Assembly: GCA_036785375.1 (NCBI GenBank)
Contig: JAWMAR010000007.1
Coordinates: forward strand, 1,116,001 to 1,180,000
Direction: 5' to 3'
DNA from: Leucoraja ocellata
Taxonomy: Eukaryota
DNA length: 64,000 nt
The stretch's first letter is position 1. The number at the start of each line of letters is the position of its first letter. The position numbers were made by a program. Below are positions 48,001 through 64,000 of the stretch, piece after piece.

Positions 48001-51000
48001 GAAAAGCTGAAGAGAAATTGACTGCAAATTTTGCTATGACTACTTAAAAAAAGAATTCTGCTGCAAGCTAGCTAAGGGTCAACCTGACCTTGACCTCTAT
48101 GAAGAGAACAGCACAGGAACAAGCAGATGCCCCAAGATCTTCCTGCAAGCATTTCATACATCTTAGTTTAGTTTAGTTTGGAGGTACAGCACCTTCGGCC
48201 CACTGGGTCCGCGCTGACCAGCGATCCCCGCACATTAACACTGTCCTACACCCACTAGGGACAATTTTTACATTTACCAAACCAATTAACACACAAACCT
48301 GTACCTCTTTGGAGTGTGGGAGGAAACCGAAGATCTCAGAGAAAACCCACGCAGGTCAGGGGGAGAATGTACAGACTCCGTACAGACAGCACCTGTAACC
48401 GGGATTGAACCTGGGTCTCCGGCGCTGCTTTTGCTGTAAGGCAGCAACTCCACCGCTGTGCCACCGTGACTGCCTTGGAGGATCTGAGCCTGAGAATGCA
48501 TTGAGCATTAAGGAGCTGCATGTACTAACACAACGTTTAAGAAACATTTAGACAGGTACATGAATAGGACACACAAAAAGGCTGGAGAAACTCAGCGGGT
48601 GCAGCAGCATCTATGGAGCGAAGGAAATAGGCAACGTTTCGGGCCGAAACCCTTCTTCAGACCCGAAACGTTTCGGCCCGAAACGTTGCCTATTTCCTTC
48701 GCTCCATAGATGCTGCTGCACCCGCTGAGTTTCTCCAGCCTTTTTGTGTAACCTTCGATTCTCCAGCATCTGCAGTTCCCTCTTAAACACATGAATAGGA
48801 CAGGTTTGGAGGGATATGGGCCAAATGTGGGCAGGTGGGACTAGTGTAGCTGGGACATGTCGGTCGGTGTGGGCAAGTTTGGCCGAAGAGCCTGTTTCTA
48901 CGGTGTGTGACCATGACTATCTAGCTTAGGTTGGTGACTCTGAAAACACCCTGGGAGAAAACCCTTTGTTATGGGGTATGTTTGCCTCACAGACCCACAC
49001 TGAGAGTCGAGCTGTGGTCTTAACCATACCTCCTGCAATCATGTGTCACTGCTTAAACATCCAGTGCATCCACATCCCAACAGCTAAATGCTGGAGAAAG
49101 CACGCCGTGTTAGTTGAAGCACACATTGTGGGCTTTGAAAGGTATCTGAGCAACAGGCAGTGACTTTTAAGAGTGCCCAGCCAATGTTAATGAAGGTAAA
49201 TAGCAATAAAAGCAACAAGCTAGTGCAATGTATTCCTGGTTCTACATGTGGTACAGTGCATGTGGTGTGGATCTTTGAGCTACAATTTATGTTGGTATGG
49301 GTGAAATACTTAAGGGGCATTCTTTTAAAAAGGAGGTGAGGAGGAACTTCTTTAGCCAGAGGATAGTTAATCTGTCGAACTCGTTGCCACAGAGTGCTGT
49401 GTAGGCCATGTGAGTGGATATTTTTAAGGCAGAGATAGGCAAATTCTTGGGTGTCAGGGATTATGGGGATACATAGAAACACCAATGTACTTCCTTAAAA
49501 CAGAGAAAAAAACCACTTCTCACTTCCACGTAACAGAGATGTCATCAATATAAGACGCTGCAATGATTATCCCCAGCAAACTTAGAACGTGAATACCAAC
49601 TCATTACAATAACTGATAGCTTAATGCAGACCATATTACTTGCAAGTCTCATTGGAAGTCCTACCACAATTTTCAATGTTTAACAGCTGCAAGAGAGAAA
49701 TTACTTCTTGGTAAATTAAAATTAACTGATATACAAAAATGACGGTCGAAAAGGTTGTGAAGCATGCACAAAATTGCAAGATTTGAATTGTCAAACTATT
49801 GGTAAGTTTAGACTAAAGTTCTAGTGGCGTGGTTAGACTGAAATTTATAGATTAATTTACAGAAGGCTGTGGAGGCCAAGTCAGTGGATATTTTTTAAGG
49901 CAGAGATAGATAGACTCTTGATTAATATGGGTGTCAGAGGCTATGGGGAGAAGGCAGGAGAATGGGGTTCGGAAGAAGAGATAGATCAGCCATGATTGAA
50001 AGGCAGAGTAGATTTGATGGGTGGAATGGCCACATTCTACTCCTATCCCTTATGACCTTATAGATAACTACCATATGTAATTGTGGGTTCGCGCTAACAA
50101 ATTCCCTTTAGGATTCTTCCTGGATGCCAAGAAGTTCAATATATTAAACTTTATTAACCCCAGAAGTTTGATTGCACATTTTTCATCCCCCGAGTAGTTT
50201 TTGTATCAAGCAAAATAGTCCATTGCTGGCTGTGTGAGCTATACATGTGCCATTGGGGTTATGAACGCGGAAACATAGAAAATATGTGCAGGTGTAGGCC
50301 ATTCTGCCCATCGAGCCATCACCGCCATTCAATATGATCATGGCTGATCATCCAAAATCAGTACCCCGTTCCGGCTTTTCCCCCATATCCCTTGATTCCC
50401 ATGGCTCTAAAAGCTAAATCTCTCTTGAAAGAGAGGCGGGAAAATGAGAGTAGGAGGCAGCGATTAGCAATGATTGAATAGCAGAGTGGACGATTAGGTC
50501 GAATGGCCTTATTCTACTCCTCTAATTTGTGAACTTGTGAAAGCTGGTATTCCATGAATAACGATATCATTAGGTGCACGTCTGATGCTGAAACAACAGT
50601 CAGGTGCATTAAAGTGCATGTGGGCGGCACAGTGGCGCAGTGGTAGAGTTGCTGCCTTACAGCGCTTGCAGCGCCGGACACCCAGGTTTGATCCAGATTA
50701 CGGGTGCTGTCTGTACAGACTTTGTACGTCCTCCACGTGACCACATGGGTTTTCTCTTCAGTTTCCTCCCACGCCCTTTGGCCCATTTTGACCATGCTGA
50801 CCAACGATCACCAGTACACACCATAGTTCTATCCTACACACAAGGGACAATTTACAACAGGCAATTAACCTGCAAAACCGCACGTCTTTGAAGCATGGGA
50901 GGAAAGTGGAGCACTCAGAGAAAACAGGGAGAGCGTACAAACTCCATACAGACAGCAACTGTAGTCAGGATCAAACCTGGGTCTCTGTTGCTGTAAGGCA

Positions 51001-63000: not shown

Positions 63001-64000
63001 ACAGCCAGCAATGAACTATTTTGCTTGATACAAAAACTACTCGGGGGATGAAAAATGTGCAATCAAACTTCTGGGGTTAATAACGTTTAATATATTGAGC
63101 TTCTTGGCATCCAGGAAGAATGCTAATGGGAATTAATTAGCACTAACCCACAATTACATATAGTAGTTATCTATAAGGTCATAAGGGATAGGAGTAGAAT
63201 CAGGCCATTCGGCCCTTCAAGTCTACTCTGCCTTTCAATCCAGGCTGATCTATCTCTTCCTCCTAACCCCATTCTCCTACCTTCTCCCCATAGCCTCCGA
63301 CACCCGTATTAATCAAGGACCTATCCATCTCTGCCTTAAATATATCCACTGATTGGCCTCCCCAGCCTTTTGTAAATTAATCTATAAATTTCTGTCTACC
63401 CACGCCACTAGAAATTTAGTCTAACCTCACCACTGTTTGACAATTCAAATCTTGCTATTTTGGTACATGCCTCGCAACATTTTTGACAGTCATTTTATAA
63501 ATCAGTTAATTTTAATTTACCAGGAAGCAATTTCTCTCTTACAGCTTACATTGAAAATTGTGGTAGGACTTCCTATGAGATTTGCAAATAATATGGTCTG
63601 CATTAAGCTATCAGTTGTTGTAATGAGTTGGTAATTACTTTCTAAATTTGCTATGGAAGCTTCTTAAATTAATGACATCTCTGCTACTGAGGAAGTACAT
63701 TGGTGTAAGTTTCAATACGACTGACAACACTGAAGAATTTGTTACTGTAAAGTTGCTTGGTGCTATCGATTTAAATTTTCGAATTTGGCTCACATAACTC
63801 ATTGGCCAGTTTTGCATCAACTTGTAAACCTCACGCCGATGGGCCCGGAATGGCTTTTTGCAGGAAAAACTGTAGTCCAGTTGTAGTCCCACCTGGACTG
63901 AAATGCCATTTTGGAGCAGAATGAAGGAAGTTTTATTCTGCAAGACATTCATGAGAATGCATGGTTCTGCATGATGCAAAATTTGGAAACATATAATTTG

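What the first reader, a model, noticed from the sequence alone, without database searches (positions are those of the whole stretch)
49476..63713. ~0.9-kb local inverted duplication bracketing three ARHGEF28 exons
Seen: 49476-50427 and 62806-63713 are reverse complements across non-TE sequence and two embedded CR1 tails at identical junctions, so one segment was duplicated and inverted ~12 kb away. The arms differ by many substitutions and indels, which argues against an assembly artefact. They enclose exons 52812, 57958 and 59844 (398/401 nt, not a multiple of 3). Established: complementary intronic arms promote back-splicing, exon skipping and ADAR editing. Inference: candidate lineage-specific circARHGEF28, frameshifting skip or inversion breakpoint.
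[Added by the scan's program, not by the reader: the finding's places include an assembly gap (unread letters, written N; its length is only estimated) at 53973 to 54110. Whether the letters on both sides are continuous or in frame is not known: test that first.]
Basis: partly seen in the sequence, partly recalled or inferred. Interest (0 to 1): 0.65.

Follow-up and report, generated by a model that had tools for sequence, protein, structure and literature searches.

The report
Inverted retroposon copies flanking three exons
Two roughly 0.95-kb copies of one mobile-element-like segment lie in opposite orientation in the introns on either side of three coding exons; they could pair in the RNA and favour a circular RNA, but this arrangement is common and nothing here shows that it happens.

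Summary
Arm L (49470-50430) and arm R (62807-63713) are reverse complements: 815 of 897 aligned columns are identical, with 11 indels. The same two CR1-like LINE tails sit at the same junctions in both. The arms bracket three + strand exons with canonical splice sites and continuous phases, 398 or 401 nt in total. The single N gap lies between the arms. It sits inside one TIR-bounded insertion nested in a collinear LINE fragment, so order and orientation across it are supported.

Arm L is a precise insertion that splits an older CR1-like tail. One end lies inside a CR1-like tail body and the other ends in that family's 8-mer microsatellite. Arm R is flanked by a 7-nt direct repeat. Homology stops at these ends, and L holds 8 nt more of the tail than R. 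The arms therefore look like retroposed copies of one composite unit, not an arbitrary local DNA duplication. Genome-wide copy number could not be checked.

In silico, L and R form by far the strongest cross-intron duplex. Back-splicing, editing and exon skipping remain untested inferences. The ARHGEF28 identity is also untested. The finding is ordinary in kind and of modest interest.

The parts
49470..50430 (-). Arm L: a 961-nt composite unit. Its putative sense (that of the embedded CR1-like tail B) is on the minus strand, so it is antisense in the gene's pre-mRNA.
   Evidence: Reverse complement of arm R. It sits as a precise insertion between the two halves of an older tail.
62807..63713 (+). 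Arm R: the same composite unit, with sense on the plus strand (sense in the pre-mRNA).
   Evidence: Homology to L ends at 62806/7 and at 63713.
49472..49480 (-). Terminal 8-mer at the outer end of arm L (plus strand CATAGAAA followed by C). It equals the microsatellite unit of tail family B and has the same orientation as B's own.
   Evidence: The 8-mer occurs 14 times in the window against 3.3 expected, and 11 of the 14 lie at B-type tail ends.
49482..49858 (.). 'unique1' of arm L (R counterpart 63703-63374). No other copy in the window.
   Evidence: 90.0% identity between arms. No other nhmmer hit to profile positions 1-383.
49859..50062 (+). Tail A: a 5'-truncated CR1-like LINE 3' end nested in the unit (R counterpart 63373-63172, minus strand).
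   Evidence: Family alignment. Six further A-type loci in the window. 90.1% identity between arms.
50063..50257 (.). 'unique2' of arm L (R counterpart 63171-62977). It holds the best-conserved tract, with perfect helices of 69 and 64 nt.
   Evidence: 94.9% identity. Helix lengths. No other copy in the window.
50258..50430 (-). Tail B: the 3' end of a second CR1-like LINE family, 5'-truncated, with its 8-mer microsatellites at 50258-50281 (R counterpart 62976-62807, plus strand). L extends 8 nt further into the family than R and carries a 6-nt internal deletion.
   Evidence: Alignment with 8 other copies. All share this 3' end and vary in 5' extent, and 4 of the 8 run on past the arms' end. Junctions.
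49324..49469 (+). Left half of the older CR1-like tail A' that arm L interrupts.
   Evidence: Matches the A profile at positions 400-491. Family alignment. Extension to 49324.
50431..50538 (+). Right half of the interrupted tail A'.
   Evidence: Matches the A profile at positions 494-603, resuming within 2 positions of where the left half stops.
62801..62807 (+). 7-nt direct repeat AATACGA at the inner end of arm R. A candidate target-site duplication.
   Evidence: 278 of 20000 random position pairs show a repeat of at least 7 nt in the same tolerance.
63714..63720 (+). Second copy of the 7-nt direct repeat, at the outer end of arm R.
52812..53019 (+). Bracketed exon 1, 208 nt, phase 2 to 0.
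   Evidence: AG at 52810-11 and GT at 53020-21, with an open frame. No Pfam or PDB match.
57958..58072 (+). Bracketed exon 2, 115 nt, phase 0 to 1.
   Evidence: AG at 57956-57 and GT at 58073-74. No Pfam match.
59844..59921 (+). Bracketed exon 3, 75 or 78 nt (tandem donors at 59919 and 59922), phase 1 to 1.
   Evidence: AG at 59842-43, and GT at 59919-20 or 59922-23. No Pfam match.
40080..40444 (+). Upstream exon, 365 nt, ending in phase 2. This fits the start of exon 52812 and defines the upstream intron as 40445-52811.
   Evidence: No Pfam or PDB match.
53537..54495 (.). TIR-bounded element that contains the assembly gap 53973-54110. It was used as the continuity test.

Best explanation
The two arms are inverted copies of one ~0.95-kb composite unit. 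Read in its putative sense, the unit consists of:
- the last ~160 nt of a CR1-like LINE (tail B) with its own 8-mer microsatellites;
- about 790 nt of what was once that element's downstream flank (unique2, a nested antisense CR1-like tail A, unique1);
- one more 8-mer of the same type at the end.

At least arm L, and probably both arms, arrived as discrete RNA-mediated insertions made by CR1-type target-primed reverse transcription. Three routes are possible: copies of a 3'-transduction-type or SVA-like composite family, a mother-daughter pair, or a template-switch retrocopy of the local transcript. An arbitrary DNA-level segmental duplication is less likely.

Shown: the repeat itself, its anatomy, the insertion of L into an older tail, and the end features. 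Inferred: the RNA-mediated mechanism, and the existence of a source with a longer tail B.

Consequence, inferred from established circRNA and ADAR biology. In the pre-mRNA, L (antisense) and R (sense) can form an imperfect duplex of about 830 bp. This loops out about 12.4 kb that holds three exons. It brings the acceptor at 52812 (2.4 kb from L) near the donor at 59918/59921 (2.9 kb from R). It would be a strong ADAR substrate. It could support low-level back-splicing to a 398- or 401-nt circle, or a frameshifting skip of the three exons. There is no evidence that any of these is frequent or selected.
For: Repeat and unit copy:
- Searches show the repeat. Divergence is equal in the TE and non-TE segments, 88-95%.

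L is an insertion:
- 49388-49469 matches A-profile positions 400-491 and 50434-50538 matches positions 494-603. The family alignment shows the same break.

CR1-type ends:
- Tail B copies share one end with (CATAGAAA)n and vary at the other. Two copies are about 45-50 nt, one about 135, one about 150, and four longer than 250.
- This is the pattern of 5'-truncated LINE copies. The 8-mer is one mismatch from the amniote CR1 unit ATTCTRTG described in PMC8665684 and PMC5729268 (passages).
- The outer end of L carries the same 8-mer in the same orientation. It is one of only 14 occurrences in 128 kb of two strands, 11 of which lie at B ends.
- The inner end of L matches the B family for 8 nt beyond R's end.

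R and the flanks:
- R is flanked by AATACGA on both sides, seen in 278 of 20000 random pairs.
- Flanks beyond the unit are not homologous: 45 of 1000 and 87 of 1000 shuffles reach the observed score.

Pairing:
- Cofold gives -1361 kcal/mol against -255.4 and -222.8 for the arms alone, with 830 of 948 L bases paired to R.
- L x R scores 1145 bits. The next cross-intron pairs score 131 and 123 bits, out of 24 inverted pairs listed.
- Repeats of 30-40 nt suffice for circularisation in minigenes (PMC4201285, abstract and sections 10 and 15).
Against: Against the CR1 retroposition reading:
- No hairpin precedes the unit's terminal 8-mer in either copy (z = -0.56 and -1.45). A hairpin plus microsatellite is held to be the CR1 recognition signal.
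- R keeps only 5 of the 8 terminal bases.
- L has at most a 2-bp target duplication.
- The 7-nt repeat at R has a chance rate of 1.4% and was found post hoc.

Against independent insertions:
- Retroposition gives no reason for two copies to lie 12 kb apart unless the family is abundant. Yet the window holds only these two copies, no truncated ones, and no source.

Against an RNA-level effect:
- The arms lie 2.4 and 2.9 kb from the splice sites, and L is transcribed about 13 kb before R.
- The 129-nt copy at 61670-61798 competes for part of R (-185 against -228 kcal/mol).
- Two other cross-intron pairs of about 113 nt already bracket the same exons.
- Longer repeats do not always help circularisation, and ADAR may oppose it.
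Confidence: 0.55

Rival explanations
1. Local DNA-level inverted (insertional) duplication. About 0.9 kb of one intron was copied by replication template switching or break repair and pasted in reverse 12 kb away.
For: Only two copies exist in 64 kb, and they lie close together. The composite of TE and non-TE parts was copied as one block with uniform divergence. Templated insertions and fork-switching events are typically local and often inverted (general knowledge, recalled).
Against: Both ends of both copies coincide with TE-type features to within 8 nt, which an arbitrary duplication does not predict. L carries 7-8 nt of tail-B family sequence that R lacks. L also carries the family's 8-mer at its other end. 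R cannot be the template as it stands. If L were the template, the copied block would have to match L's own insertion boundaries.
Confidence: 0.2
2. Chimeric retrocopy of the local transcript. A CR1-type reverse transcriptase primed at the L site on its own 8-mer. It switched template to the nascent pre-mRNA at R (microhomology GTTTC), copied back through R's tail B, and switched again onto LINE RNA within the homologous tail. R would then be the original sequence and L a one-off RNA-mediated local copy.
For: This accounts at once for the proximity, the 8-mer at L's outer end, the 5-nt overlap where homology ends, and the extra tail-B bases at L's inner end. It also accounts for both boundaries falling at tail-B-related sequence. 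The R unit is in sense orientation in the gene's transcript. [quoted passage not shown]
Against: It needs two template switches. It leaves the 7-nt direct repeat around R as chance (1.4%). No precedent was found for the use of a neighbouring intron RNA; one search listed 6 papers, none on this by title.
Confidence: 0.2
3. The pair is a selected cis-element that drives a functional, lineage-specific three-exon circular RNA or a regulated exon skip.
For: It is the strongest cross-intron complementarity by about ninefold in bit score. It forms a very stable predicted duplex. The unique2 tract is better conserved between the arms, 94.9% against 88-90%.
Against: No RNA data and no cross-species comparison were available. 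With two sequences, compensatory change cannot be scored. The human circle comes from a single 281-nt exon 11, not a three-exon block. The higher identity in unique2 could equally be gene conversion or chance. TE-rich introns produce such pairs by chance, and two other pairs bracket the same exons.
Confidence: 0.08
4. Assembly artefact: a mis-joined or mis-oriented contig at the gap, or a collapsed or duplicated haplotype.
For: The arms lie on opposite sides of the only gap in the window, so their relative orientation depends on the scaffold join.
Against: The gap lies inside one element with matching 34-nt terminal repeats and an 8-bp flanking repeat. That element is nested in a LINE fragment whose frame resumes across it. 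Exons on either side are on the same strand with matching phases. The arms differ by 82 substitutions and 11 indels.
Confidence: 0.03
5. Footprint of an inversion. Staggered breaks left inverted duplications at the two breakpoints.
For: Inverted duplicates that bracket a segment are the signature of that model (recalled).
Against: The halves of the older tail on either side of L are collinear and in the same orientation. The bracketed exons are in gene order, strand and phase with exon 40080-40444.
Confidence: 0.02

Closest known systems
Exons flanked by inverted intronic repeats that circularise (ZKSCAN1, HIPK3, EPHB4; Liang and Wilusz 2014, PMC4201285; abstract and sections 10 and 15 read)
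   Same: Complementary repeats in the two flanking introns. Canonical splice sites. A multi-exon block of a few hundred nt. The repeats are TE-derived.
   Different: The arms here are about three times the length of an Alu and lie 2.4 and 2.9 kb from the splice sites. There is no expression evidence. The organism and TE type differ.
Human circARHGEF28 (hsa_circ_0005777; PMC10323094 and PMC11264966, passages read)
   Different: The human circle is one 281-nt exon (exon 11). Here three exons of 398 or 401 nt would be involved. I made no comparison with human sequence, so exon correspondence is unknown.
L1 3' transduction and SVA-type composite retroposons (recalled, no call)
   Same: A LINE-derived piece plus foreign flank, including an antisense repeat fragment, moved as one unit with defined ends.
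   Different: The machinery here would be CR1-like, which is thought to need a hairpin plus microsatellite at the very 3' end. The unit has the 8-mer but no evident hairpin. Family size is unknown.
CR1 LINE and CR1-mobilised SINE 3' ends (PMC8665684, PMC5729268; passages read)
   Same: An 8-nt microsatellite at the 3' end, one mismatch from ATTCTRTG. Variable 5' truncation. Short or absent target duplications.
   Different: Membership of the CR1 clade was not tested by reverse-transcriptase phylogeny. In the unit, the 8-mer lies about 790 nt downstream of the tail's own end.

Membership tests
Inverted-repeat-flanked circRNA-prone exon block | Reverse-complementary sequence of at least 30-40 nt in both flanking introns | tested here: met
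   About 900 nt with 815 of 897 columns identical. The longest uninterrupted helices are 69, 64 and 45 nt. The threshold is from PMC4201285.
Inverted-repeat-flanked circRNA-prone exon block | Cross-intron pairing stronger than competing within-intron pairing of the same arms | tested here: met
   L x R scores 1145 bits. The only competitor touching an arm is 61670-61798 x 63176-63304 at 143 bits, with -185 against -228 kcal/mol for the same R segment. This is thermodynamic only; kinetics are not addressed.
Inverted-repeat-flanked circRNA-prone exon block | Back-splice junction reads (donor 59918/59921 to acceptor 52812) | not testable with these tools
ADAR hyper-editing substrate | Long intramolecular dsRNA in a transcribed region | tested here: met
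   830 predicted intermolecular pairs and a gain of -883 kcal/mol over the monomers. That the region is transcribed is inferred from the exon structure only.
ADAR hyper-editing substrate | Clusters of A-to-G mismatches between RNA and DNA | not testable with these tools
   No RNA data were available.
CR1-type retroposed copy (3'-transduction-type or composite unit) | Discrete insertion with an identifiable interrupted target | tested here: met
   Arm L splits an older tail at profile positions 491/494. No target could be recognised for arm R.
CR1-type retroposed copy (3'-transduction-type or composite unit) | 5' end inside a LINE body (truncation) and 3' end at the family's 8-nt microsatellite | tested here: met
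   Met for L. R keeps 5 of the 8 terminal bases.
CR1-type retroposed copy (3'-transduction-type or composite unit) | Hairpin directly upstream of the terminal microsatellite | tested here: not met
   Folds of the last 76 nt give z = -0.56 (L) and -1.45 (R), with no shared hairpin.
CR1-type retroposed copy (3'-transduction-type or composite unit) | Target-site duplication | tested here: inconclusive
   R has the 7-nt repeat AATACGA at both ends, against 278 of 20000 random pairs. L has 0-2 bp.
CR1-type retroposed copy (3'-transduction-type or composite unit) | A source locus or further copies elsewhere in the genome | not testable with these tools
   No assembly of this organism was available. 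Within the window there is no third copy.
Local DNA-level segmental (inverted) duplication | Boundaries unrelated to mobile-element ends, with one copy's extent contained in the template | tested here: not met
   Both ends of both copies fall at TE-type features. L holds 8 nt of tail B that R lacks, and R holds 6 nt that L lacks as an internal deletion.
ARHGEF28 gene | Sequence homology of the exon peptides to ARHGEF28 orthologues or to its domains | not testable with these tools
   Exon-by-exon Pfam searches of five exon peptides and PDB searches of two gave no match. The protein databases that could decide were closed. A resemblance of the peptides to the region before the C1 domain is my recollection only. 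The exons were never joined.
Staggered-break inversion footprint | The segment between the duplicates is inverted relative to its flanks | tested here: not met
   The tail halves are collinear across L and exon phases are continuous.

The most novel reading that the evidence does not exclude
A CR1-like reverse transcriptase moved about 790 nt of non-LINE flank behind a LINE tail, either as 3' transduction or as an SVA-like composite family. It primed on a lone 8-mer without the adjacent hairpin that is thought obligatory. The resulting inverted intronic pair drives a lineage-specific three-exon circular RNA and heavy A-to-I editing in this gene.
Probability: 0.12. Interest if true: 0.5.

Novelty: new member of a known kind. 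Interest (0 to 1): 0.3.

Why it matters
If the pairing acts in vivo, it would be a clean, unusually long non-mammalian example of TE-derived intronic complementarity. It could shape circRNA output, editing, or a frameshifting exon skip in a signalling gene.

The junction anatomy also bears on how strict CR1-type enzymes are about their 3' recognition signal, and on whether they can carry flanking sequence. That point is usually discussed for L1, not for CR1.

As it stands, the value of this check is mainly corrective. The repeat is real and the gap does not undermine it. Its ends indicate an insertion of a mobile unit rather than an arbitrary local duplication, and all functional claims remain predictions.

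Tried and rejected
1. By eye, the flanks of R looked faintly like the two halves of the tail that L interrupts. A profile of 12 A-type pieces found no hit in either R flank even at E up to 1000. Local alignment was no better than shuffles, 45 of 1000 and 87 of 1000. Rejected.
2. I looked for the rest of tail B to the left of 62807, which would indicate a later interruption of R. The bodies of four long B copies gave no hit there.
3. I looked for a CR1-type hairpin at the unit's 3' end. None was convincing.
4. I looked for a second LINE copy spanning the junction at the gap, to serve as a ruler. tblastx gave none, and Pfam gave only a weak RVT_1 match for the left piece (E 0.0028). The continuity argument therefore rests on the terminal repeats, the 8-bp flanking repeat and the resumed frame.
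5. Gene identity: Pfam gave nothing on five exon peptides and PDB nothing on two. The second query was mis-framed by my indexing slip and was repeated correctly.
6. Rfam over the whole window at gathering thresholds gave 0 matches.
7. The inversion-breakpoint and assembly-artefact readings are rejected as set out under the rival explanations.
8. Literature: one search for circRNA work in elasmobranchs listed one unrelated paper. One search for CR1 transduction listed 6 papers, none on the subject by title. Neither search shows absence from print.
9. Not used, because they cannot bear on this eukaryotic intronic question: genome contigs (bacteria and archaea only), the phage, plasmid and E. coli collections, the structure tools and the protein atlas.
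Full report
**Observation**

The window has one N run, 53973-54110. The repeat finder on 48000-64000 lists four collinear inverted blocks between about 49570-50421 and 62813-63657, each 91% complementary. blastn joins them as 49522-50421 against 63696-62813, at 88.6% over 902 columns and 1145 bits.

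A global alignment gives 815 identical of 897 aligned columns, 42 transitions, 40 transversions and 11 indels. The largest indels are 31 and 10 nt, both present only in L. Homology runs from L 49476 to L 50426 and from R 63713 to R 62806/7. The match is far beyond chance, and the differences exclude a duplicated haplotype.

**The gap, tested first**

The gap lies in the intron between the first two bracketed exons, and so between the arms. Their relative orientation therefore depends on the scaffold join. Three features argue that the join is sound.
- 53537-53570 and 54462-54495 are inverted copies of each other, 31 of 34 identical. This is the only such pair for that sequence in the window.
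- Immediately outside them lie ATTAAAAG (53529-53536) and ATTCAAAG (54496-54503). This 8-bp flanking repeat matches at 7 of 8 positions.
- The sequence outside that element is a LINE reverse-transcriptase fragment. Its frame stops at ...LDEGIKS on the left and resumes at IQSNFSKFAGHTK... on the right, on the same strand. Pfam support for the left piece is weak (RVT_1, E 0.0028).

The gap is thus internal to one nested transposon, and the two sides are in the right order and orientation. Exon 52812-53019 ends in phase 0 and exon 57958-58072 starts in phase 0, which agrees. The gap's length, and hence the 12.4-kb spacing of the arms, is only an estimate.

**Exons**

The exons were read from the sequence.
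- 52812-53019: 208 nt, AG|G...AAG|GT.
- 57958-58072: 115 nt.
- 59844-59918 or 59844-59921: 75 or 78 nt, with two donors 3 nt apart.

The phases are 2>0, 0>1 and 1>1, and the sum is 398 or 401 nt. Upstream on the same strand lie exons 37910-38037 and 40080-40444. The latter ends in phase 2 and fits the start of exon 52812. This sets the upstream intron at 40445-52811. The downstream intron runs off the window.

I searched the spliced model exon by exon only and left the joined step out. Pfam found nothing for any of the five exon peptides. The second query was mis-framed and was repeated. PDB found nothing for two of them. The name ARHGEF28 therefore rests on no call. The protein collections that could decide were closed. 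My own impression that the peptides resemble the region before the C1 domain is recollection only.

No call names the organism.

**Anatomy of the arms**

A profile built from the two arms finds further copies in the window only for two internal stretches.

*Tail A* (L 49859-50062) is the 5'-truncated 3' end of a CR1-like LINE on the plus strand. Six other A-type loci occur in the window.

*Tail B* (L 50258-50430) is the reverse complement of the 3' end of a related CR1-like family.
- Eight other copies share the same end with (CATAGAAA)n and differ in how far they extend.
- Two reach about 45-50 nt, one about 135 nt and one about 150 nt.
- Four run on into the LINE body. This is the pattern of 5'-truncated retroposed copies.
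- The 8-mer, read in sense as TTTCTATG, is one mismatch from the ATTCTRTG microsatellite of amniote CR1. There it sits with a hairpin at the very 3' end and serves target-primed reverse transcription (PMC8665684 and PMC5729268, passages).

A GDSL-lipase ORF at 56089-56571 (PF13472, E 5.5e-10) is in keeping with CR1-like elements. That link is recalled.

The remaining 377 nt (unique1) and 195 nt (unique2) have no third copy in the 64 kb. Identity between the arms is 90.0% (unique1), 90.1% (A), 94.9% (unique2) and 88.2% (B). The composite was therefore copied as one block.

**The ends, where the picture changes**

*Arm L is a precise insertion.*
- 49388-49469 matches A-profile positions 400-491, and 50434-50538 matches positions 494-603.
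- The family alignment shows one older tail, A', broken between ...TATGGGGA and GAGAGGC... by the 961 nt of 49470-50430.
- The overlap at the break is at most 2 bp.

*The inner end of L lies in the body of tail B.* It matches the family for 8 nt beyond the point where R's copy stops, while L lacks 6 nt internally that R has.

*The outer end of L is TA plus CATAGAAAC.* This is the B microsatellite unit in the same orientation as B's own. The 8-mer occurs 14 times on both strands of the window against 3.3 expected, and 11 of the 14 are at B ends.

*At R, homology ends after GTTTC (63709-63713).* The unit is flanked by AATACGA at 62801-62807 and 63714-63720. In the same tolerance, 278 of 20000 random position pairs show a repeat of at least 7 nt.

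*Beyond these ends the two loci are unrelated.*
- 45 of 1000 and 87 of 1000 shuffles reach the observed local score.
- The A profile finds no hit in R's flanks.
- No tail-B body lies to the left of R.

**Reading of the origin**

An arbitrary DNA duplication does not predict ends that fall on TE features at all four junctions. R as it stands cannot have been L's template. If L were the template, the copied block would have to coincide with L's own insertion limits. The inversion-footprint idea fails because A' is collinear across L and the exons are in gene order and phase.

The ends fit a unit moved by a CR1-type enzyme. The unit would be a 5'-truncated tail B, its former downstream flank (which already carried the nested tail A), and a terminal 8-mer. 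Three variants remain.
- (a) Both arms are copies of a composite family, of the 3'-transduction or SVA type. The ends are then explained by construction, but the 12-kb proximity is explained only if the family is abundant.
- (b) R is a daughter of L.
- (c) L is a chimeric retrocopy of the local pre-mRNA at R, made by template switching at the GTTTC microhomology and again within tail B. This explains the proximity and both boundaries but leaves R's 7-nt repeat to chance. Template switching by CR1 enzymes has been proposed for bird SINEs.

Two points count against all of the RNA-mediated variants. No hairpin precedes the terminal 8-mer, and no source or truncated copy is in the window.

I put about 0.7 on an RNA-mediated origin of at least arm L. 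This divides roughly into 0.45 for variants (a) and (b) and 0.2-0.25 for variant (c). I put about 0.2 on a DNA-level local duplication. The decisive datum, the genome-wide copy number of unique1 and unique2, could not be obtained. No assembly of this organism was available, and the open collections hold only bacteria, archaea, phages, plasmids and E. coli.

The Jukes-Cantor distance between the arms is 0.099. At generic vertebrate neutral rates (recalled, and unknown for this species) that corresponds to tens of millions of years.

**What it could do**

Both arms lie in introns of one + strand transcript, L antisense and R sense, so they can pair.
- Cofolding gives -1361 kcal/mol against -255.4 and -222.8 for the arms alone.
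- 830 of 948 L bases pair to R, and the longest uninterrupted helices are 69, 64 and 45 nt.
- Among 24 inverted pairs at E up to 1e-6 within and between the four intron segments, L x R scores 1145 bits. The next cross-intron pairs score 131 and 123 bits: 48789-48901 with 62171-62284 or with 60218-60330.
- The only competitor touching an arm is 61670-61798 with 63176-63304, at 143 bits and -185 against -228 kcal/mol.

Minigene work shows that inverted repeats of 30-40 nt suffice for circularisation. The same work shows that the presence of a pair does not guarantee a circle, that longer repeats can even inhibit, and that ADAR may oppose pairing (PMC4201285, abstract and sections 10 and 15).

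The prediction is therefore a strong editing substrate and at most modest back-splicing from 59918/59921 to 52812, giving a circle of 398 or 401 nt. A skip of the three exons would shift the frame. None of this is shown. The arms are kilobases from the splice sites, L is made about 13 kb before R, and shorter pairs already bracket the same exons.

I made no comparison with human sequence.

**Verdict**

The arms are real inverted copies of one unit around three exons, but the unit looks like a retroposed mobile segment rather than an arbitrary local duplication, and every functional claim is inference.

In kind this is a new member of a known class: TE-derived intronic complementarity. The junction anatomy is a minor curiosity for LINE biology. 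Supplementary files of the cited papers were not consulted and do not bear on the claims made here.

Noticed in passing
window 53537-54495: A transposon-like element with 34-nt terminal inverted repeats (31 of 34 identical) and an 8-bp flanking repeat (7 of 8). It is nested in a LINE reverse-transcriptase fragment and contains the assembly gap. The 8-bp duplication is hAT-like by recollection; its superfamily was not tested.
   Followed up: yes
window 56089-56571 (+): A 161-aa open frame with a GDSL-like lipase domain (PF13472, E 5.5e-10, above the curated cut-off). It lies directly after a LINE tail at 55881-56144. It resembles the esterase-type ORF1 of CR1-like LINEs (recalled).
   Followed up: partly
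window 59919-59923: Two GT donors 3 nt apart at the end of the third bracketed exon (ATG|GTA|GTAAGT). They would add or drop one codon.
   Followed up: no
window 50113-50284 (and 63121-62950): The best-conserved tract of the arms, with perfect helices of 37, 69 and 64 nt. unique2 is 94.9% identical against 88-90% elsewhere. This could be gene conversion between the arms, constraint or chance.
   Followed up: partly
window 48789-48901 with 62171-62284 and 60218-60330: Two further cross-intron inverted pairs of about 113 nt at 84-86% identity. They bracket the same three exons, at about -196 kcal/mol each. The arms are therefore not the only complementarity available.
   Followed up: partly
window 48571-48749, 43002-43188, 54128-54382: Self-complementary (palindromic) copies of a short repeat. 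Its core of about 60-85 nt occurs at 15 or more places in the window. It looks MITE-like and was not classified.
   Followed up: no
window 37910-38037 and 40080-40444 (+): Two further exons of the same gene, with phases that run on into exon 52812. They have no Pfam match, and the 40080 exon has no PDB match.
   Followed up: partly
window 58889-58989: A GC-rich tandem repeat (45-nt unit, 2.2 copies, 87% matches) in the intron between the second and third bracketed exons.
   Followed up: no
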